Below, one piece after another: positions 26,681-63,757 of a DNA stretch of 64,000 nucleotides; the first letter of the stretch is position 1, and every line of letters starts with the position of its first letter. The stretch lies in the NCBI GenBank assembly GCA_018817005.1, contig JAHIUF010000018.1, forward strand, positions 4,964 to 68,963, given 5' to 3'. The notes under the pieces were generated by a model that searched no databases, had not been told where the DNA came from, and was given only the letters and a program-made list of their open reading frames with translations. Source of the DNA: Nanobdellota archaeon. GTDB taxonomy: Archaea; Nanobdellota; Nanobdellia; Woesearchaeales; GCA-2686295. Made by a program: the position numbers and the translations under genes.

Positions 26681-27010
26681 ATGTTTTCAAGAAAAAAAGT
26701 TTATGGAGAATACAAAAAAGATATTTGTCCTTTTTGTGAAAAGCAAGCAACAAGCATTAATCAACAGGGTGTTCCTGTATGTCAACAGCACAAAACAGAA
26801 GAGCTTCCTCTTATGAAGTGTGTTTGTGGAGAAACTCTTGATTTAAAAACAGGCAAATTCGGTGCATATTTTCACTGCATGAACTGTGGAAACATTAGCT
26901 TTCACAAAGCAATGGATATAAATCCAAAAATAAACTTTGAAAGAAAAAAAGAAGCAACCCAAAAAAAAGAAATAACTGTCACTTCTGACGAAGCAGATTT
27001 CATATTTTAG
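26681..27010 (+). CDS. Zinc-ribbon protein with topoisomerase-type C4 zinc fingers
   Basis: CPFCEK...VCQQH and CVCGETLDLKTGKFGAYFHCMNCGN match the zf-C4_Topoisom pattern. Confidence 0.5.
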   Translation: MFSRKKVYGEYKKDICPFCEKQATSINQQGVPVCQQHKTEELPLMKCVCGETLDLKTGKFGAYFHCMNCGNISFHKAMDINPKINFERKKEATQKKEITVTSDEADFIF

Positions 27011-28959
27011 GATTTTGAAACATCAATTCTTTCTTTTAATTTTTTAACTCTATCTCGAAGTGCAATTGCTCTTTCGAATTCAAGTTTGTTTGCGGCTTTT
27101 TGCATTTCGAACTCTAATTCTATAATCAAATTCGGAACATCTTTTTTTGGAATGTGTTTTGCATCTGTTAGTTCAATTTCTTTTTCTTTAATAGGCTTTA
27201 TTATTGTTTTTGGTGTAATCTTATTTTTCTTATTATATTTCAACTGCAAATTTCTTCTTCTATTGGTTTCTAAAACTGCTTTTTTTATTGAATCAGTAAT
27301 TTTATCAGCGTATAAAACAACCTTTGAATTTATGTTTCTTGCAGCTCTGCCGATGATTTGTATAAGGCTTCTTGCGTCACGCAAAAATCCTTCTTTATCT
27401 GCGTCAAGTACTCCTATAAATCCTACTTCAGGAATGTCTAACCCTTCTCTTAAAAGATTAATCCCGACTAAGACGTCAAATTTTCCAAGCCTTAATTGTC
27501 TTATAATTTCTGTTCTTTCAAGTGTATCAATTTCAGAATGAAGATATCGAGTTTTTATTCCTGCTTCTGCAAAATATTCTGTTAATTCTTCAGCAAGTTT
27601 TTTTGTAAGTGTTGTTACAAGAACCCGGTCACCTCTGCTGATTGTTAATCGGATCTCTTCTTTTAAATCATTAATTTGTCCTTTAATTGGTTTTATCAAA
27701 ACCACTGGATCAACAAGACCTGTAGGTCTGATTATTTGTTCTACGATCTGTGATGAATGTGTTTCTTCATAAGGCCCTGGAGTTGCCGAAACAAACAACA
27801 CATTATTTTTTTTCATGAATTTTTCAAACTCTGAAAAGTCTAATGGTCGGTTATCAAATGCACTTGGAAGTCTGAAACCATAATCTATTAAATTTTTTTT
27901 TCTCGAATAATCACCCTTATACATTCCTCTTACTTGTGGTAATGTTTGGTGACTTTCATCAATAACAATCATAAAATCTTCTGGAAAATAATCAAGCAAA
28001 CAAAAAGGCCTCTCACCTTTTTTTCTTCCTTCAAAATACCTAGAATAATTTTCTATGCCTTTACAAAAACCTGTTTCTTCAATCATTTCCAAATCATAAA
28101 GAGTTCTTTGTTTTAATCGATGAGCCTCTAAAGGTTCTAATTCCAAAAGTCGCTCTTTAAGATCATCTTTTATTAAGTCTATTGAAGAACTTATTGTTTC
28201 CGGCGATATAACAAATTGTCTTGCGGGATAAACATGAAAATATTTCATATCTTCTAAAACATTACCAGATGTTTTTTCAATTTCAAGAATTTTTTCTACA
28301 ATATCACCAAATAATTCTATTCTTATGATGTTATCAAAATATCCTGGTATAAAATCAATTGTATCACCTTTAACCCTGAATCTTCCGGGCATAAGTTCTA
28401 AATCGTTTCTTTCAAACTGTAAATCAACAAGTTTTCTTATCAAGTCATTTCTTGAAAACTTTTTTTTAGAAACTATTTCAAATCCCATTTGTACAAAATT
28501 TTTTGGATCGCCAACACTGTAAATACAAGAAACTGAAGCTACAACTATCACATCTTTTCTTGATATAAGTGAGGCTGTTGCCGCAAGCCTCATCTGTTCG
28601 ATTTTTGGATTTACCTGGGCATCTTTTTCTATGTACTGATCTTTTTGTGGTATATATGATTCTGGCTGGTAATAATCATAGTATGAGACAAAATATTCAA
28701 CTCTATTTTTGGGAAAGAAATCTTTAAATTCGTTATAGAGTTGAGCAGCTAAAGTCTTGTTGTGTGCTAAAACAAGAGTTGGTTTTTGTATTTGAGATAT
28801 GATGTTTGCAACTGTAAATGTTTTTCCAGAACCCGTAACTCCCAGAAGCGTTTGGTAATTTAGTTTGTTCTTTAATCCTTTCATGAGTTTTTTTATTGCT
28901 TCTGGCTGTGAGCCTTTAGGCTTAAAGCTTGATTTGAGTTTAAATTCATTTAATGCCAT
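27007..28959 (-). CDS. uvrB: Excinuclease ABC subunit B
   Basis: 650 aa, LLGVTGSGKTFTVANII Walker A, helicase motifs, C-terminal UVR domain. Confidence 0.9.
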   Translation of the reverse strand: MALNEFKLKSSFKPKGSQPEAIKKLMKGLKNKLNYQTLLGVTGSGKTFTVANIISQIQKPTLVLAHNKTLAAQLYNEFKDFFPKNRVEYFVSYYDYYQPESYIPQKDQYIEKDAQVNPKIEQMRLAATASLISRKDVIVVASVSCIYSVGDPKNFVQMGFEIVSKKKFSRNDLIRKLVDLQFERNDLELMPGRFRVKGDTIDFIPGYFDNIIRIELFGDIVEKILEIEKTSGNVLEDMKYFHVYPARQFVISPETISSSIDLIKDDLKERLLELEPLEAHRLKQRTLYDLEMIEETGFCKGIENYSRYFEGRKKGERPFCLLDYFPEDFMIVIDESHQTLPQVRGMYKGDYSRKKNLIDYGFRLPSAFDNRPLDFSEFEKFMKKNNVLFVSATPGPYEETHSSQIVEQIIRPTGLVDPVVLIKPIKGQINDLKEEIRLTISRGDRVLVTTLTKKLAEELTEYFAEAGIKTRYLHSEIDTLERTEIIRQLRLGKFDVLVGINLLREGLDIPEVGFIGVLDADKEGFLRDARSLIQIIGRAARNINSKVVLYADKITDSIKKAVLETNRRRNLQLKYNKKNKITPKTIIKPIKEKEIELTDAKHIPKKDVPNLIIELEFEMQKAANKLEFERAIALRDRVKKLKERIDVSKS

Positions 28960-29042
28960 TTTCTTTTGATAAAATTATAACAAACTTATAACAAAAACTT
29001 TTATTTTAATTTAAAAAGGTTACTGCCTCGTGTCTAGTGTGA

Positions 29043-30608
29043 TTATTTCTGCAAAGTTTCTTTTCTTCTTAAAAGCCGGTTATAACTTATTGCAAACCTA
29101 TGAGCTTCGTCTCTAATTTCTCGCAAAAATAAAAGACCTTTATTTTTCTTTTCGAGCTTTATTGAAAATTTAAGACCTGGAACAAATATTTCTTCTTCTT
29201 TTTTAGCAATTGAAATAATTGGGATTTTCAAATTCAAATTTTTTAATTCTTCAAGAGCAAAACTCAGTTGTCCTTTTCCTCCGTCAACAACTATTAAGTT
29301 TGGAAGTGGTTTCTTCTCATCCAATAGTCTTTTATATCTTCTCATTACAACTTCTGATATTGCTTTAAAATCATCAATACCTTCAACAGTTCTTATTTTG
29401 TATCTGCGATAATTTTCTTTGTTAGGTTTGCCGTTTTGAAATTGAATCATTGATGCAACAGTTGAAGTTCCTGATATATGTGAAACATCAAAGCACTCTA
29501 TTACGAATGGTGTTTCTTGCAAGCGAAGTTTTGTTTTTAAAACACTTAATTTTTCTACTTCACCAAAAAATAATGCTTCAATATTTTTTAGAACTAGTTC
29601 AAGAAGCTTTTTTTTATCGCCCTTTTTTGGAACAACAACTAAAACTTTTTCTTTTCGTTGAAATTCTAGAAAAGATTTAAGCGAATTACTAATGTTCTTT
29701 GGTAAGATTATTTCTTTTGGAACCTTATTTTCAGAATAATATTGAGAAATAAATTGTTCAAAAAAATCGTTTTGTTCTTCAAATTCAAATTCCTGTTTAT
29801 TTTCAAGAAGACCTTTGTAAACATTAAAAAGCAAGAGATAAACTTTTCCTTGTGCTCGTTTATAATTTATTATATCTTGATTGTATTTTTTTTGCAGTTC
29901 CATGGTTTGTTTTTCTTTAAGCCAGATTAGTGATTGTATTTGATTTCTTAATTCGATTGCTAATTCAAAATCTTGTTTCTTAGAATAAAGTTCCATATTC
30001 TTTTGAAGTATTTTTAAAAGATCGTTTATTTTCCCTTTAAGAACCATTTTTGTAGCAGATATTTTTTTAGCGTATTCCTTTTTTGAAATATTTTTTATAC
30101 ATGGTGCTTCACAAAGTTTTATATGATATCGTAAACAGGATTTTTTAGAGATTTTTTTGCAGGTTCGAAGCTTAAAAGTTTTTATGAGTGTATGCATAAG
30201 ATAATCTCTTGTTCCTGCAGATGTGAATGGTCCGAAAAATTCTCCTGTACCAATTTTTTTTCTTACAATAAGAATTCTTGAAAAATCTTCTTTCGTAATG
30301 TGAATGTAAGCATATCTTTTTGAGTCTTTAAGTTGAATATTATATTTTGGCTGATACTTTTTTATCAGATTATTTTCCAGAATGAGTGCTTCCACTTCAT
30401 TATTTGTTATAAAAAATTCTATGAATTCAATCTTTGAAACAAGAGATTTTGTTTTTGAATCTAAAGACTTTTTTTGAAAATAACTACTAACTCTTTTTTT
30501 TAGATTATTTGCTTTACCAACATAGATTACTTTTTCTTTTTTGTTTTTGAAAAGATAACAACCGGGTTTGATAGGAATTTTGTTTGGGACATCTTTAAGT
30601 TTTATCAT
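29043..30608 (-). CDS. uvrC: Excinuclease ABC subunit C
   Basis: N-terminal GIY-YIG (PGCYLFKNKKEKVIYVGKANNLKKRVSSYF), 521 aa; overlaps the uvrA stop by 4 nt. Confidence 0.85.
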   Translation of the reverse strand: MIKLKDVPNKIPIKPGCYLFKNKKEKVIYVGKANNLKKRVSSYFQKKSLDSKTKSLVSKIEFIEFFITNNEVEALILENNLIKKYQPKYNIQLKDSKRYAYIHITKEDFSRILIVRKKIGTGEFFGPFTSAGTRDYLMHTLIKTFKLRTCKKISKKSCLRYHIKLCEAPCIKNISKKEYAKKISATKMVLKGKINDLLKILQKNMELYSKKQDFELAIELRNQIQSLIWLKEKQTMELQKKYNQDIINYKRAQGKVYLLLFNVYKGLLENKQEFEFEEQNDFFEQFISQYYSENKVPKEIILPKNISNSLKSFLEFQRKEKVLVVVPKKGDKKKLLELVLKNIEALFFGEVEKLSVLKTKLRLQETPFVIECFDVSHISGTSTVASMIQFQNGKPNKENYRRYKIRTVEGIDDFKAISEVVMRRYKRLLDEKKPLPNLIVVDGGKGQLSFALEELKNLNLKIPIISIAKKEEEIFVPGLKFSIKLEKKNKGLLFLREIRDEAHRFAISYNRLLRRKETLQK

Positions 30609-33406
30609 TTTAATATATTTCTTAAAAAAACTGCGGTGTGACTATTCTTGTTTATTGACACCTCTTCAGGTGTTCCTTTTGCAACAATAAAACCTCCATC
30701 ATCACCGCCATCTGGACCTAAATCTATTATGTAATCCGCAGATTTTATAACATCAAGATTATGTTCAATTACAATCATTGTGTTCCCCTTTGAAACTAGT
30801 TCATCTAAAACCAAGATTAGTTTTTTTACATCATGAAAATGAAGACCTGTTGTTGGTTCATCTAATAAATAAACTGTTTTTCCAGTTCCTTTTTTTGAAA
30901 GTTCTCTTGTAAGTTTAATTCTTTGTGCCTCTCCACCAGAAAGGGTTGTAGAGCTTTGACCAAGTTTGATATATCCTAGACCTACTTTTTTTAATGTTTC
31001 AAGTTTTGATTTTAATAGCGGTCTATTCTGAAAAAGTTCGTAAGCTTCATCTACAGTCATATTCAAAATATCTGCTATTGATTTACCTTTAAATCTCACT
31101 TCTAAAGTTTCACGATTGTATCTTTTGCCCCCACAATCTTCACATTCAACATATACATTTGGAAGAAAATTCATTTCTATCTTTATGACTCCATCACCTT
31201 GACAAATTTCGCATCTTCCACCTTTTACATTAAAAGAGAATCTTCCCGGTTTATAACCCCTTATTTTTGATTCTTTTAATTCTGAAAATAGTTTTCTTAT
31301 TTCATCAAAGATTTTTGTGTATGTTGCAGGGTTGCTTCTTGGAGTTTTACCTATGGGACTTTGATCTATTACTACTACTTTATCAATTTCTGATCCTAAT
31401 ATGATTTTATCATGTTCACCAACTCTTTTTTTTGAGTCATAAAGCTTTTTCATAAGGCCTTTATAGAGAATTTCATAAATCAAAGTTGATTTGCCGCTTC
31501 CTGAAACACCTGTTATGAGCGTTAAAATTCCTATTGGAATACTAACATCAATGTTTTTTAAGTTGTTCTGTCTACAACCTTTGATTTCAATAAAACTCTG
31601 AGCCTTTCTTCTAATGTTCGGAATGGAAATTTTCATTTTTTTGGAAAGATATTTTCCTGTCAGGGATTTTTCGTTTTTTGCAATTTCTTCAGGTGTGCCT
31701 TTGGCAATAATCCTTCCCCCTAAAAGACCTGCACCAGGACCCATATCTACAACGTAATCTGCTTTTCTTATTGTGTCTTCATCGTGTTCTACAACAATAA
31801 GAGTATTTCCAATATCTCGTAAGCGATGAAGTGTATCTATTAGTTTTTGATTATCTTTTTGATGAAGACCAATTGATGGTTCGTCAAGAATGTATATTAC
31901 ACCCATTAGATTGGAACCTATCTGTGTTGCAAGTCTAATTCTTTGGGCTTCTCCGCCAGAAAGCGTTCCTGAGTTTCTTGAGAGTGTTAAGTATGAAAGT
32001 CCTACTTCTGATAAAAATTTAAGTCGAGAATTTATTTCTTTTAAGATGTGTTTTGCAATCTCTTGTTCTTTTTCAGATAATTTTAAATCTTTAAAAAAAT
32101 CTAAAGTATCTTTTATGGAAAGGTCGGTTATATCAATTATTGATTTATCGTTTATTTTTACTGCTAAAACTTTTTCTTTAAGCCTTTTTCCCTTACAAGC
32201 AGGACAGGTAGATACTCTCATAAATTTTTCAAGTTCTCTTCTTCTATAATCTGATTCAGTTTGATGAAAAAGTCTTTCAGATTGAGGTACGAGACCTTCC
32301 CAACTACTGGTATGAGTCCAGTTAGCTTCACCTTGCTTCATCTTCATATTAAATTTTATTCGATCCTCAGATCCATACATCAAAATATTGTATTGTTCTT
32401 TTGATAAGTCTTTGATTGCTGTAAAAACTCCAAACCCATAATGTTTAGCAACTGAACCGATATATTGTCCTCGCCAACCATCAATTGCGTTTCTGTAAAG
32501 CATTATTGCACCATCTGCAATTGACTTATTCTTATCTGGTATTATCAAGTCAGGGTCAAAATCCATTTTTATACCAAGACCATGACATTCTTCACAAGCA
32601 CCAAACGGACTATTAAAAGAAAACATTCTTGGTTGCAATTCTTCAAATGCTAAGCCACATTTTGGACAAGCCATTTTTGAAGAGTATAATTGTTCTTTAT
32701 TTGATTCGTCAAGAACAATCAATAATCCTTTTGATTTTAACAGAGCATTTTCACAAGCCTCTACGAGTCTTTGAGTGTCTGTTATGTTAAGTCTATCTAT
32801 AACTATTTCAATATCATGTTTTTTGTATCTTTCAAGAAGTATTTTTTCATCAGTTCTTACAATTTGTTTATTTACTCTTGCTCTTGCATATCCTTCTTTG
32901 TTTAAATCCATTAACAGTTTTTCATATGTTCCTTTTTTTTGTCTGATTATTGGTGAAAGAACTATTATGTTACCGGAGAGTTCTTCTGCAATTTTCTGTG
33001 CAATTCTTTCTGAAGATTGAGCTTCTATTTTTATTCCGTGTTCCGGACAGTAAGGAATACCTATTCTTGCGAAAAGAAGCCTCAGATAATCATATATTTC
33101 AGTTATTGTTCCAACAGTACTTCGAGGATTCTTACTCGTAGTTTTTTGTTCGATTGATATTGCTGGCGATAAGCCTTCAATACTATCAACATCTGGTTTG
33201 TTCATTAACCCCAAAAATTGTCTTGCATAAGCTGAAAGTGATTCAACATATCTTCTTTGCCCTTCAGCATATAATGTGTCAAAAGCAAGGGTTGATTTTC
33301 CACTGCCTGAAAGACCAGTTATTACTATAAACTTATCCCTTGGAAGTGTTACATTAATGTTTTTTAGGTTGTGCTCACGAGCACCTTTAATTATTATGTC
33401 TTTCAT
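30605..33406 (-). CDS. uvrA: Excinuclease ABC subunit A
   Basis: 933 aa, two ABC modules ([20 protein letters not shown]), zinc fingers, LSGGEAQRI signatures. Confidence 0.9.
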
Positions 33407-39702: not shown

Positions 39703-39774
39703 GCAGGAGTGGCCAAACGGTAAGGTGAGCGCCTGCAGAGCGCTAGATTGGGGGTTCAAATCCCTCCTCCTGCT
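39703..39774 (+). tRNA. tRNA-Cys (anticodon GCA)
   Basis: Acceptor GCAGGAG/CTCCTGC, anticodon stem AGCGC/GCGCT with loop CTGCAGA, T-arm GGGGG-TTCAAAT-CCCTC, discriminator U73 (Cys identity element); short 3-bp D-stem. Confidence 0.8.
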
Positions 39775-49478: not shown

Positions 49479-50648
49479 ATGGGCTTTTTTAGATTATTAC
49501 TTCCACTATCAAAAAGAAATAAAAGAGACTTATCAGAGTTAGCTAGATATCTTGAAAAAGACGACTTAAAAAAAGTCAAGAGAATGCTTAAACAAAAGAA
49601 GATTGGCTTTGCATACCGATCACTCAACATTTCCCAAAAACTAATCTCTGACACGAGTTTTCCTTTCTTAAATGCAGCGATTGAAGATTCAGAGATTTCA
49701 AAAACCACAGACAACATCAATAGTGTTGTTGAGCAACAAGTACGAGCAAAAAAATATAAAGAATTCTCAGAAGTTGCTTATGAAAAAATAAAGGGTTTTA
49801 TCGCGCCAAACATCGTTGGAATGGATTTTGCAAAAGAAGCAGCCATGCTACAATTATTTGCAGTTGAAAAAGTACACCTTCTACTGTTAGGAGATCCTGG
49901 CACTGGAAAAACTGAGATATTAAGATCTGTTAATGAATTAGCACCAATATCTTCTTTTGGACTCGGATCAGGAATTAGCGGTGTGGGATTAACAGTTTCT
50001 GTGCAAGGAAAAGAGATTCATAAAGGTTTGCTTCCAATAGCAGACGATGGTGTTTGTTGTATTGATGAATTAAATCTTATGAAACAAAAAGATAGGGGCG
50101 CACTTCTTAATGCCATGGAAAAAGGTTTCATAACCTATAACAAAGGAAACAAAAGTCTAAGCCTTGATGCAAGAGTAAGTGTTCTTGCAACTGCAAACCC
50201 CACAGGGGATCGTTTTGTCGGAAAAATAATTGATACCTTCAAAAAACAAATACCTTTTGATTCAGCGCTTTTAACAAGATTTCACATCATTTTCTTCATA
50301 AGAAGACCTAATGAAAAAGAATTCGCAAATATAACTCAAAAAATTGTGAGTGGTAAAGAAATGAGAGTAGAGATAAACGACTCGTTGTTTATCAGAGATT
50401 ATATAGAATTTTCACATTTAATAACTGTGAAGTTTGATGAAAAACTAAAAACAACAATAGTTGATTTCGTTGCCAGACTTAAAAAAGATGAAGATAAATT
50501 CTTGGTTGAAATAAACCCAAGAACAATAATTGGAATAATGAGATTTGCAAAAGCAGCTGCAAGACTTGAGCTTCGAAACAAAGTTGAAGAAAAAGACTTG
50601 AAAAAAGTTTTTGATATTTTAGAGAAAAGCTTATATATTAAAAGATAA
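49479..50648 (+). CDS. MCM-family AAA+ ATPase lacking the N-terminal OB/zinc domain (mini-MCM)
   Basis: IAPNIVGMDFAKEAAMLQLF, Walker A GDPGTGKTE, Walker B CCIDELNLM, VLATANP, arginine-finger region TRFHIIFF; GAGGGG SD upstream; 389 aa versus about 650-700 for full MCM. Confidence 0.7.
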   Translation: MGFFRLLLPLSKRNKRDLSELARYLEKDDLKKVKRMLKQKKIGFAYRSLNISQKLISDTSFPFLNAAIEDSEISKTTDNINSVVEQQVRAKKYKEFSEVAYEKIKGFIAPNIVGMDFAKEAAMLQLFAVEKVHLLLLGDPGTGKTEILRSVNELAPISSFGLGSGISGVGLTVSVQGKEIHKGLLPIADDGVCCIDELNLMKQKDRGALLNAMEKGFITYNKGNKSLSLDARVSVLATANPTGDRFVGKIIDTFKKQIPFDSALLTRFHIIFFIRRPNEKEFANITQKIVSGKEMRVEINDSLFIRDYIEFSHLITVKFDEKLKTTIVDFVARLKKDEDKFLVEINPRTIIGIMRFAKAAARLELRNKVEEKDLKKVFDILEKSLYIKR

Positions 50649-60122: not shown

Positions 60123-61091
60123 TCACGATTCTAATAGGTTTTCTTCCCATATCTGATTCTTTCCTGCAAGTTTTGCCTTGTAAAGAGCATCATCAGCTGC
60201 TTTCACAATCTGATTTATAGATATATTAAAATCACCCTTAGAAGGCGGATTATATGTTGCAACACCACCACTTACAGTAACTGATTTAATAAAATCTTTT
60301 TTAGGGCTGTAAGGTGCAGAACTAATTCTTTCTCGCAATCTATCAGCAAGGTTGTAAGCTGCATCAAAAGTTGTTTCAGGCAGTAAAAGAACCATTTCTT
60401 CTCCGCCAAATCTTACAGCAAGATCTGTTAAACGAGTGCTTTCCATCAAATTTCTCGCAATCTTTTTCAGAACGTAATCCCCTTCCAAATGACCAAAAGT
60501 GTCATTGTATTTTTTAAAATTATCAACATCAAAAAAAACTAAAGATAAAGGTTTTCTTGACCTAACCAACCTCTTTATTTCTAAAAGACTATGCGACTGA
60601 AATGCACCCATATTATAAAGACCGGTTTTAGGGTCTCTTTCAGAAAGAACTGCATTTTCCTGATTTCTTAACTCCTTTTGAACCTTTAACATCAACATAG
60701 AAAGATTAAGAGGCTTTGAAAGGTAATCACAAGCGCCAATTTTCATTGCTTCAACAGCAGTTTCGAGGTTTGGATTACCAGTCATAACAATTGACATGGT
60801 ATCTTTGCTTTCCTCTTTTATTTTTTTAAGCAATTCTAAACCACTCATGCCTGAAAGATTAATATCAATTAATGCAAGGTCATGATAAACAGACTTTATG
60901 TGTTCTAATCCCTCTTCTCCAGAATAAGCCTCTGAAACACTAAAATAAGGTATTTGACAAAGAGCATACTTGATTAAAGAAGTTATTTTTTTATCATCGT
61001 CAACAATTAAGATATTTTTATCTTTAGGAGTTCCTGATGCAGGGTTTTGTGAGTCAAGCAAATTAGTTAACTCATCGGTTGTGTTGAACAT
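60123..61091 (-). CDS. Response regulator with receiver domain fused to GGDEF diguanylate cyclase domain
   Basis: REC (ILIVDDD...DLALIDINLSGMSGLEL), GGDEF domain (FFDVDNFKKYND, RFGGEEMVLLLPET). Confidence 0.75.
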   Translation of the reverse strand: MFNTTDELTNLLDSQNPASGTPKDKNILIVDDDKKITSLIKYALCQIPYFSVSEAYSGEEGLEHIKSVYHDLALIDINLSGMSGLELLKKIKEESKDTMSIVMTGNPNLETAVEAMKIGACDYLSKPLNLSMLMLKVQKELRNQENAVLSERDPKTGLYNMGAFQSHSLLEIKRLVRSRKPLSLVFFDVDNFKKYNDTFGHLEGDYVLKKIARNLMESTRLTDLAVRFGGEEMVLLLPETTFDAAYNLADRLRERISSAPYSPKKDFIKSVTVSGGVATYNPPSKGDFNISINQIVKAADDALYKAKLAGKNQIWEENLLES

Positions 61092-61202: not shown

Positions 61203-62141
61203 ATGAAACATAATTTAAACGTTACAATAATACTTATCGCGATTTTTATAATAACACAAATAGTAGGGCTTACACTTATAAACTTAGACATAAAAAGTGT
61301 TCAAAACGTAAACGGAACAATAACTATAAACCATCAAGAAACAGCAATAGGTCCAAGGCCGCAAACAGAAGGTGCAGGGTCGTTCATATACTTATCTGGA
61401 GCAGTATTTATAGGAACAATACTAGTATTGATTCTTATAAGATATAAGAAAAGAAATCTCTGGAAAACCTGGTTTTTCCTGGCAGTTGTACTATCAATAA
61501 CAATTGCCCTTGGAACCTTTCTTTCAAAAACACTCGCACTAATCCTTGCAATAATCTTTGCAATTATGAAACTCTACAAACCAAACATATTAACCCATAA
61601 CTTAAGTGAAGTACTCATATACTCGGGGATTGCAGTTTTAATAGTTCCAATACTAGATATTTTTTGGGTAACAATGCTCTTGATAATAATATCTTTCTAC
61701 GACATGTTCGCAGTGTGGAAAAGCAAACACATGATAAAAATGGCTGAATTTCAAACAAAAAGCAATGTCTTTGCAGGAATTATGATACCATACGAACAAA
61801 AAGAACAACACGTAACAATAAAAACACCCATAAAAGCTGCGCCTATGATTGAAAAAAGTCAAACCACCAAAAAGAACAAAGAAATAAGACTAAAAAATGC
61901 AATACTCGGAGGTGGAGACGTTGCTTTTCCACTAATATTTTCAGGAGTTGCAATGGAAAACTTCATACTGAAAGGCTTAAGTCCAATAATCGCTTTTCAA
62001 CAAAGCTTAGTGATAGTTTTATTCACAACAATTGCTGTTTTTGGATTGTTCACATTTGCTAAGAAAAACAAATTTTACCCAGCAATGCCATTTATAACAA
62101 TAGGCTGTTTAGTAGGGTATGCTATAACTCTATTAATATAA
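61203..62141 (+). CDS. Presenilin/signal-peptide-peptidase homolog (A22-family intramembrane aspartyl protease)
   Basis: About 9 TM segments; YD (IISFYDMFAV), GxGD-like (ILGGGDVAFP), PAL-like (YPAMPFI) motifs in the correct order. Confidence 0.5.
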   Translation: MKHNLNVTIILIAIFIITQIVGLTLINLDIKSVQNVNGTITINHQETAIGPRPQTEGAGSFIYLSGAVFIGTILVLILIRYKKRNLWKTWFFLAVVLSITIALGTFLSKTLALILAIIFAIMKLYKPNILTHNLSEVLIYSGIAVLIVPILDIFWVTMLLIIISFYDMFAVWKSKHMIKMAEFQTKSNVFAGIMIPYEQKEQHVTIKTPIKAAPMIEKSQTTKKNKEIRLKNAILGGGDVAFPLIFSGVAMENFILKGLSPIIAFQQSLVIVLFTTIAVFGLFTFAKKNKFYPAMPFITIGCLVGYAITLLI

Positions 62142-62187
62142 CTAGCACATAATTATTGAAAATCACTTTGATTTATTCAAACACAAT

Positions 62188-62997
62188 TTAAAAATTGTTG
62201 AGTTTTTTTTGCTTTAAAGAAGATGCATATGAAACTGGATTAACAATCAAACCATCTTTTGCAGCGATAACCTGACATTTTGTTTTTTTCTGAATTTCTC
62301 TAGCCTCATAAATCGTGTCTGCATCAAGCATTTTTAAACCGAAATGAGTGAGAATTGCAAGTTTTGGATTTATTTTATTCAAAAACTTAACAACATCTTC
62401 AGAATTCATATGTCCTTCTTGAGAAAGCCCAATAGGATGTTTACAATTAATAATAATGACATCCACGTCCTTATGGCCATCGACGAGTTCTTTACAATAC
62501 TCTGTATCGCCAGTGTATGAAACAACAAAATTCTCACTATAAAACTTAAAACCAAGAGATGACTCTGTGTGTTTTGCAAAGACAGGCATTATATTCACTT
62601 CATTTATACCTATTCTCATACCTGGTTTTACCGCAATAAAACGTTCAAGCATTGCTTTGCTATGTTTTTTTAAGCCAGGATAATCATTTTCAGAACCATG
62701 AAGTGTTTCTTCATCACAGACCAACACTCCGTGTTTGTCCATACCAGAATAAGTCATGGCAGAAATTATTGCATTCAAATCATTAACATGATTTATGTGA
62801 TTGTGTGAAACAAAAATCGCAGTGTTTTCTCGAAGGTTAATGCCATAATCTTTGGCCTTTATAATTGCACCTGGACCTGGATCAAGATGGAACTGGTTAT
62901 CATTAAATTTTAAAATTATTCCACCAGAAGACCTTATCTGTTTACCAACGACTTGAGAGTCACCTCCCGTACCCAAGAATAAAATAGCGTTTTTCAT
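62188..62997 (-). CDS. MBL-fold metallo-hydrolase
   Basis: HxHxDH-type motif VSHNHINHVND; start set at MKNAILFLGTGG with GGGGGTG upstream. Confidence 0.6.
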   Translation of the reverse strand: MKNAILFLGTGGDSQVVGKQIRSSGGIILKFNDNQFHLDPGPGAIIKAKDYGINLRENTAIFVSHNHINHVNDLNAIISAMTYSGMDKHGVLVCDEETLHGSENDYPGLKKHSKAMLERFIAVKPGMRIGINEVNIMPVFAKHTESSLGFKFYSENFVVSYTGDTEYCKELVDGHKDVDVIIINCKHPIGLSQEGHMNSEDVVKFLNKINPKLAILTHFGLKMLDADTIYEAREIQKKTKCQVIAAKDGLIVNPVSYASSLKQKKLNNF

Positions 62998-63125
62998 GCG
63001 CACCCCCAAAACAAATATATTTCAGAGAAGTTAATAAAAGTTTCGTTTTAAACCATTAAAAACCGAGACTTAAAGAGATATACAAGAGATAGATTTAAAA
63101 AGCAAAAAACTTTCTTCCAGATTGC

Positions 63126-63390
63126 TAGACTGGGTGGCTCGTCCTCACCTGTAACTGCAAACGGATGTACGGCAGGGTTGAAGCCTGAGGGGCGGCGTAA
63201 TTTTAGTTATAGGTCTTGGTTGGACCGTCGACGTCTTGTCCTTTAGGATCAGGATTTTTATGAACTGAGTCAGATCAGGAATGAAGCAGCTCTAAGTATT
63301 AATCGTGGTGTCTAAGGGGTTGCAGGATTGAGGAAAAATCAAGGTAGCCTTTGATTGGAGTTTTCGTCCACCTTCAGGCGTGCACTTTTA
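63126..63390 (+). ncRNA. Signal recognition particle RNA (7S/SRP RNA) candidate
   Basis: GC-rich island in AT-rich genome; helix-8-like GAGUCAGAUCA-GGAA-UGAAGCAGCUC (compare E. coli 4.5S GUCAGGUCCGGAAGGAAGCAGCC); 5'/3' regions complementary; TATA-like GATTTAAAAA about 30 nt upstream, T-run after. Confidence 0.55.
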
Positions 63391-63412
63391 TAAATTTTAA
63401 AGATTATTAAAA

Positions 63413-63757
63413 ATGGATTTAAAAACAGCGATTCTATCAAGAATTTTAAGCATTGTCTTCATCGCAATTATGATAATAGTATTTTATCTTATTGCAGAAA
63501 AAATGGCTAAAAAAAGAGCGAAGAATGTAAAAAGCCTTTATGTATGTCCTAAATGTGGAAGTATAAATCTTCGATATATAGATGATATTCTTCCAGGAAC
63601 AAGATTCATAAGTACAACACCCTCCAACAACGAATTCGAATGTATTGATTGTGGTTATCAAGGAATAGCACCAAAAGTTGACAGAGAACAAATTAATTCT
63701 TTTAGAGAAGAAATTAAGAAAAACAAGAATAATAATTCTCTCAAACGAAAAAATTAG
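63413..63757 (+). CDS. hypothetical membrane-anchored zinc-ribbon protein
   Basis: N-terminal TM, CPKCG...CIDCG. Confidence 0.35.
   Translation: MDLKTAILSRILSIVFIAIMIIVFYLIAEKMAKKRAKNVKSLYVCPKCGSINLRYIDDILPGTRFISTTPSNNEFECIDCGYQGIAPKVDREQINSFREEIKKNKNNNSLKRKN

What the first reader, a model, noticed from the sequence alone, without database searches (positions are those of the whole stretch)
63126..63390. GC-rich structured RNA, probably SRP (7S) RNA
A ~265-nt GC island contains the helix-8 signature (stem-GGAA tetraloop-UGAAGCAGC with symmetric non-canonical loop positions) and complementary 5'/3' arms, with a TATA-like box upstream and a T-run downstream. RNase P RNA is the alternative, but the AGCAGC/GGAA arrangement favours SRP.
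Basis: partly seen in the sequence, partly recalled or inferred. Interest (0 to 1): 0.5.

Follow-up and report, generated by a model that had tools for sequence, protein, structure and literature searches.

The report
Archaeal SRP RNA lacking helix 6
This is the gene for the RNA core of the signal recognition particle (the machine that sends new proteins to the membrane) of a tiny DPANN archaeon, and it lacks the hairpin (helix 6) that textbooks treat as universal in archaea, as do the matching RNAs of at least 30 related species.

Summary
Window 63118-63389 (+) is a signal recognition particle (SRP/7S) RNA gene: a full-length Rfam Archaea_SRP hit of 119.5 bits (threshold 96.5, E 1e-26), with no RNase P signal. 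The GGAA loop, AGCAGC motif, paired ends, TATA-like box and T-run are all present.

The RNA is only about 270 nt, against about 317 for the model. The 40 model positions of helix 6, the SRP19-binding hairpin, are replaced by 3 nt, so helix 5 runs straight into helix 8. Taken alone, the apical half matches the bacterial 4.5S model end to end.

Pattern scans found the same short, archaeal-scoring RNA in 5 distinct metagenome sequences and 30 archaeal species genomes (Woesearchaeota, Nanoarchaeota, Aenigmatarchaeota, Nanohalarchaeota). In a 34-sequence alignment, 71 of 80 base pairs and the Alu pseudoknot show compensatory changes, and 33 of 34 loci have a TATA box at a fixed distance.

Published marker surveys report the SRP19 family (PF01922) absent from all 152 Woesearchaeota genomes examined. 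The best reading is therefore a two-part SRP (RNA plus SRP54) that lost helix 6 and SRP19 together.

I found no paper describing this. It is an ordinary gene family in a probably undescribed structural variant.

The parts
63094..63101 (+). Archaeal TATA-box promoter element (TTTAAAAA). It predicts a transcription start near 63120-63125.
   Evidence: Read directly from the sequence. A TATA-like hexamer starts 26-36 nt upstream of helix 1 in 33 of 34 homologous loci, against 0-6 of 34 in equal-sized control windows.
63118..63389 (+). SRP (7S) RNA gene, archaeal type, helix-6-less variant (about 266-272 nt).
   Evidence: RF01857 at 119.5 bits (GA 96.5), E 1.4e-26, model 1-317. 100% identical copies occur in NCBI MAG GCA_018824025.1 and in ENA/Logan assemblies.
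63121..63125 (+). Helix 1, 5' strand. It pairs with 63382-63386 (4 of 5 pairs canonical in the window, so weak in this lineage).
   Evidence: RNAalifold consensus and pair counts on 34 sequences: all 5 pairs show double changes.
63128..63179 (+). Alu (small) domain. Helix 2 is 63128-63131/63176-63179, helix 3 is 63132-63137/63145-63150, and helix 4 is 63155-63158/63172-63175. The UGUAAC (UGUNR) motif is at 63150-63155. The loop-loop pseudoknot is 63140-63144 (CGUCC) with 63163-63167 (GGAUG).
   Evidence: Pseudoknot: 98.8% of cells paired, 5 of 5 pairs with double changes, covariation score 0.91 against <=0.19 when partners are slid.
63183..63261 (+). Helix 5, 5' strand. It pairs with 63296-63379 (54 consensus pairs, 49 canonical in the window).
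63248..63309 (+). Unbranched apical rod. A 14-bp helix (63248-63261 with 63296-63309) carries helix 8 directly on top. It occupies the place of the helix 5/6/8 three-way junction, and there is no helix 6.
   Evidence: cmscan replaces 40 model positions with 3 nt. All 14 pairs covary in the 34-sequence alignment. Window 63233-63328 alone matches Bacteria_small_SRP RF00169 end to end (1-97 of 97), 44.4 bits against GA 40.
63262..63295 (+). Helix 8, the SRP54 M-domain binding site. Asymmetric loop: GAACU 63262-63266 / UAA 63293-63295. Stem: 63267-63270/63289-63292. Symmetric loop: CAGA 63271-63274 / AGCA 63285-63288. Stem: 63275-63277/63282-63284. GGAA tetraloop: 63278-63281.
   Evidence: The three apical pairs are 100% paired with 12-21 double changes each. 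CAG, GGRA and AGCAGC were required by the search patterns, so their invariance across the retrieved set is not independent evidence.
63386..63398 (+). T-runs (TTTT at 63386-63389 and 63395-63398), the likely archaeal oligo-T terminator.
   Evidence: Read from the sequence. T-runs follow the 3' end in many, but not all, homologous loci.

Best explanation
This is the single-copy gene for the SRP RNA of a DPANN archaeon of the Woesearchaeota/Nanoarchaeota radiation, transcribed from its own TATA-box promoter. The RNA keeps an intact Alu domain (helices 2-4, UGUNR motif, 5-bp loop-loop pseudoknot), a long helix 5, and a canonical helix 8 with the SRP54-binding loops and GGAA tetraloop. It has lost helix 6, so the S domain is an unbranched hairpin like that of bacterial 4.5S and Bacillus scRNA.

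Inferred mechanism: SRP54 binds helix 8 directly, without SRP19. The particle recognises signal sequences at the ribosome exit. The GGAA tetraloop and distal helix 5 serve docking of FtsY and GTPase activation, as in bacterial SRP. The protein-free Alu domain reaches the factor-binding site to slow elongation. In short, it is a two-component (RNA + SRP54) archaeal SRP.

Shown here: RNA identity, secondary structure, absence of helix 6, conservation of the variant and of its promoter across DPANN species. Taken from the literature: SRP19 is absent in the clade. Inferred only: binding, targeting and arrest functions.
For: Identity: RF01857 full length, 119.5 bits against 96.5.

Helix 6 missing: 40 model positions are replaced by 3 nt in the window and by 0-3 nt in 5 distinct metagenome homologues. 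20 archaeal genome homologues score 112-177 bits on RF01857 yet are only 260-278 nt long. An independent RNAalifold consensus of 34 sequences has no third hairpin. The S domain alone is an end-to-end RF00169 match.

The variant is functional: 91.2% of cells are paired against 40-45% when partners are slid; 71 of 80 pairs show double changes; the covariation score is 0.77 against 0.12-0.17; 0 of 500 shuffles reach the observed value. The pseudoknot covaries. A TATA box sits at a fixed distance in 33 of 34 loci. Median pairwise identity is only 54% while length stays at 265-275 nt.

Archaeal host: family B DNA polymerase and MCM are in the window, and the archaeal rpoN-S9-L13-L18e-rpoD-S11-S4-S13 cluster lies downstream. 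The SPP-MBL-SRP RNA-LeuRS neighbourhood is shared with Woesearchaeota/Nanoarchaeota MAGs at 40-58% protein identity.

Partner protein: PF01922 is the SRP19 family. It is reported absent across 152 Woesearchaeota genomes (PMC8421398) and in Parvarchaeales/Jingweiarchaeales (PMC10134863). Cultivated nanohaloarchaea list only FtsY, Ffh and a very highly expressed SRP RNA (PMC10266531). SRP19 is dispensable in Haloferax, and archaeal SRP54 binds SRP RNA without it (PMC2905702).
Against: The rest of this particular genome could not be searched for SRP19 or for a second, canonical SRP RNA copy. SRP19 absence rests on other authors' marker-gene tables for the clade, and a very divergent SRP19 could escape PF01922.

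The homologues were retrieved with patterns that required the short Alu-to-helix-8 spacing. They therefore show that the variant exists and is widespread, not that it is the only form in these lineages.

No expression data exist for this organism.

In the window, helix 1 is weak (4 of 5 pairs) and the base of the apical rod has three non-canonical pairs.
Confidence: 0.85

Rival explanations
1. It is RNase P RNA.
For: Only the general appearance: a GC-enriched structured RNA of about 270 nt in an AT-rich archaeal genome.
Against: No RNase P family reached the gathering threshold anywhere in the 64-kb window or E<=1 in 62900-63600. The whole length is accounted for by the SRP model, and the covariation fits the SRP fold.
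Confidence: 0.01
2. It is a bacterial-type large SRP RNA (Bacillus scRNA type, RF01854). Either the archaeon acquired it by horizontal transfer, or it sits on a bacterial contig binned wrongly.
For: The architecture is the same: helices 2-5 and 8, no helix 6. The Alu-to-helix-8 span is the same (142-149 nt in both groups). 19 of 20 tested hits from the first, unrefined metagenome scan were RF01854. The S domain alone scores as a bacterial 4.5S RNA.
Against: For the window and all 25 further archaeal-type loci tested, RF01857 outranks RF01854 in clan competition, whereas true bacterial examples score 148-226 bits on RF01854. The bacterial Alu core (AGCGGUGCCCUGUAACC) and the CGUGCUAG / GGUGCACG termini are absent. 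An archaeal TATA box is conserved at a fixed distance. The contig carries archaeal replication, transcription and ribosomal genes. The tool hides lower-ranked clan hits, so the actual RF01854 score of the window is unknown.
Confidence: 0.04
3. It is a decaying, non-functional SRP RNA copy with helix 6 deleted, and the working canonical gene lies elsewhere in the genome.
For: Only 64 kb of the genome (plus about 8.5 kb of extension in locus L001) could be inspected. Helix 1 and part of the apical rod are imperfect in the window.
Against: The same architecture is kept in at least 35 diverged sequences, with compensatory changes in 71 of 80 pairs and a conserved promoter. That is the signature of purifying selection. 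The gene sits in a conserved neighbourhood. The helix-6 partner SRP19 is reported absent from the clade.
Confidence: 0.03
4. The helix-6-less form is not a loss but the ancestral archaeal (LUCA-like) state, retained in DPANN. Helix 6 and SRP19 were then invented later, in the lineage leading to other archaea and eukaryotes.
For: The layout is identical to the bacterial large SRP RNA. It is present in several deep DPANN lineages: Woesearchaeota, Nanoarchaeota, Aenigmatarchaeota and Nanohalarchaeota. SRP19 is also missing from Parvarchaeales.
Against: DPANN show widespread reductive evolution, and a recent reconciliation study argues for a derived origin of host-associated lineages (PMC13473441; abstract only, seen). 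I could not determine whether other DPANN lineages keep helix 6 and SRP19. Nothing here polarises the character.
Confidence: 0.07

Closest known systems
Canonical archaeal SRP (7S) RNA, Rfam RF01857 (e.g. Methanocaldococcus jannaschii, Archaeoglobus fulgidus, Sulfolobus solfataricus)
   Same: It is the best-scoring covariance model, matched over its full length. Shared features are helix 1 closing the ends, an Alu domain with helices 2-4, the UGUNR motif and a loop-loop pseudoknot, a long helix 5, helix 8 with a GGAA tetraloop and the symmetric and asymmetric loops, and an archaeal TATA promoter with an oligo-T terminator.
   Different: There is no helix 6, and so no GNAR tetraloop, no helix 6-helix 8 adenosine clamp and no three-way junction. 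The RNA is about 270 nt instead of about 300-317 nt. [quoted passage not shown]
Bacterial large SRP RNA / Bacillus subtilis scRNA, Rfam RF01854
   Same: The overall architecture and size are the same (Alu domain + helix 5 + helix 8, no helix 6, about 265-270 nt), as is the Alu-to-helix-8 spacing. By inference it has the same two-component logic: the RNA plus one SRP54/Ffh protein, with RNA-mediated elongation arrest.
   Different: RF01857 outscores it on every archaeal-type sequence tested. The Alu core sequence and the terminal motifs differ. The host is archaeal and the promoter is of the archaeal type. Bacillus uses HBsu on the Alu domain, and no counterpart is known here.
Bacterial small SRP RNA (4.5S RNA), Rfam RF00169
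   Same: The S domain alone (63233-63328) matches this model end to end and above its threshold: an unbranched hairpin with the same loops and tetraloop.
   Different: 4.5S RNA has no Alu domain and no long helix 5. Here the hairpin is only the apical third of a 270-nt RNA.

Membership tests
Archaeal SRP RNA (RF01857) | Covariance-model score at or above the curated gathering threshold, over the full length | tested here: met
   119.5 bits against 96.5, model positions 1-317, E 1.4e-26.
Archaeal SRP RNA (RF01857) | Alu domain: helices 2, 3 and 4, the UGUNR motif, and loop-loop tertiary pairing | tested here: met
   Helices 2-4 are 95-99% paired with double changes. UGUAAC lies at 63150-63155. 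The pseudoknot is 98.8% paired with a covariation score of 0.91.
Archaeal SRP RNA (RF01857) | Helix 1 formed by the 5' and 3' ends | tested here: met
   All 5 pairs show double changes across the family (87.6% paired). In the window 4 of 5 are canonical. The TATA position suggests the window's 5' end may begin inside helix 1.
Archaeal SRP RNA (RF01857) | Helix 8 with a GRRA tetraloop and the symmetric and asymmetric internal loops (the SRP54 site) | tested here: met
   GGAA at 63278-63281; CAGA/AGCA loops; both stems 99-100% paired with covariation.
Archaeal SRP RNA (RF01857) | Helix 6 with a GNAR tetraloop (the SRP19 site) and the helix 6-helix 8 adenosine clamp, described as present in all archaea (PMC2905702) and strictly conserved (PMC4731332) | tested here: not met
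   The 40 model positions are replaced by 3 nt. The RNAalifold consensus has no hairpin there. A continuous covarying 14-bp rod occupies the place. The S domain matches the unbranched 4.5S model end to end.
Archaeal SRP RNA (RF01857) | An SRP19 partner protein encoded in the same genome | not testable with these tools
   Whole genomes cannot be fetched. There is no SRP19-like ORF in 344 kb of held archaeal loci. The literature reports PF01922 absent in 152 Woesearchaeota genomes, and PF01922 is SRP19.
Bacterial large SRP RNA (RF01854) | It is the best-scoring model in the SRP clan | tested here: not met
   RF01857 wins the clan competition for the window and for 25 further archaeal-type loci. 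True bacterial hits score 148-226 bits on RF01854.
Bacterial large SRP RNA (RF01854) | Architecture: Alu domain + helix 5 + helix 8, without helix 6 | tested here: met
   The Alu-to-helix-8 span is the same as in the bacterial examples.
Bacterial large SRP RNA (RF01854) | Bacterial Alu core and termini (AGCGGUGCCCUGUAACC; 5' CGUGCUAG / 3' GGUGCACG) and a bacterial host | tested here: not met
   The motifs are absent from the window and from all 30 archaeal-labelled loci. The contig carries archaeal informational genes and the gene has an archaeal TATA promoter.
RNase P RNA | A covariance-model hit to any RNase P family | tested here: not met
   No hit at the gathering threshold in the window or at E<=1 in 62900-63600.

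The most novel reading that the evidence does not exclude
The two-component, helix-6-less SRP of DPANN archaea may not be a reductive loss. It could be the ancestral archaeal state, shared with the Bacillus-type bacterial SRP. In that case helix 6 and SRP19 would be later inventions on the lineage leading to other archaea and eukaryotes, and the SRP RNA would become a marker for rooting the archaeal tree. The more modest novel reading, that clade-wide co-loss of an RNA helix and its dedicated protein in archaeal SRP has simply not been described before, is much more likely (about 0.6).
Probability: 0.07. Interest if true: 0.8.

Novelty: new variant of a known kind. Interest (0 to 1): 0.5.

Why it matters
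SRP RNA is one of the most conserved non-coding RNAs. For archaea the accepted picture is a roughly 300-nt RNA with helix 6, bound by SRP19 and SRP54, with the helix 6-helix 8 contacts described as strictly conserved.

The RNAs found here are archaeal by sequence, promoter and host, but they lack helix 6. They occur in at least 30 DPANN species, in clades where SRP19 has been listed, without comment, as a missing marker gene. This matters in four ways:

- It explains why that marker is absent: the loss is biological, not genome incompleteness.
- It provides natural SRP19/helix-6 knockouts for testing how archaeal SRP54 assembles on RNA without help.
- It shows archaeal SRP converging on, or retaining, the Bacillus-type two-component design.
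- It warns annotators that the SRP19 marker and length expectations for archaeal SRP RNA should not be applied to DPANN.

For the window itself, the practical result is a confident annotation of a housekeeping RNA gene.

Tried and rejected
- **Single-sequence folding.** z = -2.3 only, and the minimum-free-energy fold does not recover the Alu domain. I relied on covariance models and covariation instead.
- **First metagenome pattern.** It was flooded by bacterial large SRP RNAs (19 of 20 tested). I refined it by requiring a non-C base before CCUGUAAC, which kept 7 of 7 archaeal and 2 of 113 bacterial sequences.
- **Near-identical copies from exact-protein look-ups.** They carry no comparative information.
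- **A borderline SRP19-like ORF next to the SRP RNA on L011** (E about 0.01). It would have contradicted co-loss, but Pfam shows it is a CYTH-domain protein.
- **Literature searches.** Searches combining SRP19 or helix 6 with DPANN lineage names and the Undinarchaeota supplementary tables found nothing linking SRP RNA structure to DPANN. Only a search for PF01922 led to the marker-absence statements.
- **RF01854 score of the window.** The tool hides lower-ranked clan members. Scanning the S domain alone was the workaround.
- **Not attempted.** I did not use the conserved gene neighbourhood to fetch more distant relatives that might retain helix 6, because those contigs would come without organism names. 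I did not build my own covariance model, because a 270-nt model exceeds the calibration limit.
- **'Methanosarcinales' labels on L174, L189 and L213.** I did not take these as evidence for the variant outside DPANN. L213 is 84% identical to a Woesearchaeota RNA.

Full report
**1. What is there**

The interval lies in a 403-bp gap between an MBL-fold gene (62188-63009, minus strand) and a small zinc-ribbon membrane protein gene (63413-63757). Its GC content is 0.41-0.47, against about 0.27-0.35 in the flanks.

A scan of the whole 64-kb window against Rfam at gathering thresholds gave two hits: a tRNA-Cys, and a full-length match of 63118-63389 (+) to Archaea_SRP RF01857. That match scores 119.5 bits against a threshold of 96.5, with E = 1.4e-26 and model positions 1-317.

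A permissive rescan of 62900-63600 found nothing else credible and no RNase P family.

- UCA-GGAA-UGA followed by AGCAGC, at 63275-63290;
- paired ends;
- TTTAAAAA at 63094-63101;
- TTTT at 63386-63389.

**2. The host**

Exact-protein look-ups place the window on NCBI MAG GCA_018824025.1 (contig JAHJHF010000107.1) and on a 77.6-kb ENA contig. The SRP RNA is 100% identical in those copies.

The window encodes a family B DNA polymerase and MCM. Just downstream lie LeuRS and the archaeal rpoN-S9-L13-L18e-rpoD-S11-S4-S13 cluster.

The neighbourhood of signal-peptide peptidase, MBL-fold protein, SRP RNA and LeuRS recurs in at least 12 loci. Most come from MAGs labelled Woesearchaeota or Nanoarchaeota, with 40-58% protein identity to the window. 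The closest SRP RNA, at 70% identity, comes from a Nanoarchaeota MAG. The organism is an AT-rich DPANN archaeon of that radiation.

**3. The oddity: no helix 6**

The RNA is 272 nt, while the model has 317 positions. In the cmscan alignment, 40 consecutive model positions are skipped as a local end and replaced by 3 nt. These positions lie between the 5' strand of helix 5 and helix 8.

By the standard SRP RNA nomenclature, the only element at that place is helix 6, the hairpin whose GNAR tetraloop binds SRP19. This assignment rests on established knowledge, because the tool does not print the hidden columns.

Two independent checks agree:
- RNAalifold on 34 homologues predicts helices 1, 2, 3, 4, 5 and 8 and no further hairpin.
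- The apical half of the window's RNA alone (63233-63328) is an end-to-end match (1-97 of 97) to the bacterial 4.5S model RF00169, which is a plain hairpin. It scores 44.4 bits against a threshold of 40.

**4. The variant is shared and under selection**

A metagenome scan required the short spacing between the Alu motif CCUGUAAC and the helix-8 core. Of 20 tested, 19 were ordinary bacterial large SRP RNAs scoring 148-226 bits on RF01854. Six loci (five distinct sequences) were best matched by RF01857 at 123-137 bits. They are 273-279 nt long, with the helix-6 block replaced by 0-3 nt in the five alignments that were printed.

A refined pattern excluded the bacterial Alu core. Thirty of these are archaeal:
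- 15 Woesearchaeota, including the closed chromosome OY970338.1;
- 1 Nanoarchaeota;
- 3 Aenigmatarchaeota;
- 1 Nanohalarchaeota;
- 7 unclassified archaea;
- 3 bins labelled Methanosarcinales, whose labels are doubtful.

All 20 archaeal loci that I tested scored best on RF01857 (112-177 bits) and are 260-278 nt long.

The scans selected for short spacing. They therefore show that the variant exists and is widespread, but not that it is the only form in these lineages.

**5. Covariation**

The 34-sequence alignment has a median pairwise identity of 54%, and the RNAs are 265-275 nt long. On this alignment:
- 91.2% of cells form standard pairs, against 40-45% when the partners are slid;
- 71 of 80 pairs show changes on both sides;
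- the covariation score is 0.77 against 0.12-0.17 for the slid controls;
- 0 of 500 shuffles reach the observed values.

A 14-bp segment takes the place of the three-way junction (window 63248-63261 with 63296-63309). It covaries at all 14 pairs.

The Alu loop-loop pseudoknot (window 63140-63144 with 63163-63167) is 98.8% paired. All five of its pairs show double changes.

In the window itself, 74 of the 80 consensus pairs are canonical.

**6. Expression signals**

A TATA-like hexamer starts 26-36 nt upstream of helix 1 in 33 of 34 loci, against 0-6 of 34 in control windows. This is the geometry of an archaeal promoter, and it argues against a bacterial origin.

In the window and its closest relative the box lies 4-5 nt nearer, which predicts a start at about 63124 and a shortened helix 1.

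Oligo-T runs follow the 3' end in many of the loci.

**7. The protein partner**

I could not search whole genomes. The 344 kb of held archaeal sequence contains no SRP19-like ORF. One borderline hit proved to be a CYTH-domain protein.

The literature fills the gap:
- Huang et al. 2021 excluded the CheckM marker PF01922.12 because it was absent across 152 Woesearchaeota genomes (PMC8421398).
- The same marker is consistently absent in Parvarchaeales and Jingweiarchaeales (PMC10134863).
- PF01922 is the SRP19 family, and my test query was the M. jannaschii SRP19 of PDB 1LNG.
- Cultivated nanohaloarchaea list only FtsY, Ffh and a very highly expressed SRP RNA (PMC10266531).

None of these papers connects the missing protein with the RNA.

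Reviews state the opposite general picture. SRP19 is said to occur in all archaeal subgroups and to coexist with helix 6, and the adenosine clamp is said to exist probably in all archaea (PMC2905702). The helix 6-helix 8 contacts are called strictly conserved (PMC4731332).

The same review notes that archaeal SRP54 binds the RNA without SRP19 and that SRP19 is dispensable in Haloferax. That makes the loss plausible.

**8. How it most likely works**

The best reading is a two-component SRP. SRP54 binds helix 8 directly. The GGAA tetraloop and distal helix 5 serve docking of FtsY and GTPase activation. The intact, protein-free Alu domain mediates elongation slowing. This is the design known from Bacillus, here in an archaeal RNA.

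The structure, its conservation and the promoter are shown here. SRP19 absence comes from the literature for the clade. The binding and targeting steps are inferred from the families involved.

**9. Rivals**

| Rival | Probability |
|---|---|
| RNase P RNA | about 0.01 |
| Horizontally acquired or mis-binned bacterial large SRP RNA | about 0.04 |
| Decaying extra copy | about 0.03 |
| Ancestral state rather than loss (changes only the evolutionary reading, not what the gene is) | about 0.07 |

The bacterial-origin rival fails on model ranking, sequence signatures, promoter type and gene context. The decaying-copy rival fails on covariation, the conserved promoter and synteny. I could not test the ancestral-state reading.

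**10. Verdict**

The finding is a correct identification of a housekeeping RNA gene, which on its own would be ordinary. The added value is the helix-6-less architecture shared across DPANN and its match with the unremarked absence of SRP19.

I found no description of this in the searchable literature. I therefore rate it a new variant of a known kind, with moderate interest.

Noticed in passing
window 60123-61091 (-): A response-regulator receiver domain fused to a GGDEF (diguanylate cyclase) domain, on an archaeal DPANN contig (Pfam PF00072 + PF00990). From my own knowledge, c-di-GMP signalling is rare in archaea, so this may be a bacterial acquisition.
   Followed up: no
window 61203-63009, and loci L233, L180, L147, L225, L146, L143, L216, L139, L220, L166, L109: The SRP RNA gene sits in a conserved neighbourhood: presenilin-type signal-peptide peptidase (PF06550), an MBL-fold protein (Lactamase_B_2 / Apyc1-like), the SRP RNA, then LeuRS. 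A protein-targeting RNA next to a signal-peptide-clearing protease is a suggestive functional pairing.
   Followed up: partly
window 27007-33406 (-): A complete bacterial-type UvrA/UvrB/UvrC excision-repair gene set in this archaeal genome.
   Followed up: no
window 49479-50648 (+): A short MCM homologue (389 aa). Pfam matches only the AAA+ P-loop and lid domains and finds no N-terminal domain match. This suggests a truncated or split replicative helicase.
   Followed up: no
L174, L189, L213 (genome contigs): Three 'binchicken' TPA bins labelled Methanosarcinales carry the DPANN-type helix-6-less SRP RNA. L213's RNA is 84% identical to that of a Woesearchaeota MAG (L161), so the taxonomic labels are probably wrong.
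   Followed up: partly
window 63413-63757 (+): A small ORF (114 aa) immediately downstream of the SRP RNA. It has an N-terminal hydrophobic segment and two CxxC pairs (zinc-ribbon-like). Its only Pfam match is a sub-threshold one to DUF7129. It is identical in several assemblies.
   Followed up: no
window 63424-63469 (-): A weak C/D-box snoRNA-like match (RF00526, 20.5 bits against a threshold of 50, E 0.88) inside the small ORF. It is almost certainly chance.
   Followed up: no
window 39703-39774 (+): tRNA-Cys (GCA), the only tRNA in the window.
   Followed up: yes
L001 18022-18891 (ENA contig beyond the window's end): An rve-family integrase/transposase gene at the end of the contig, just past the ribosomal protein cluster.
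   Followed up: no
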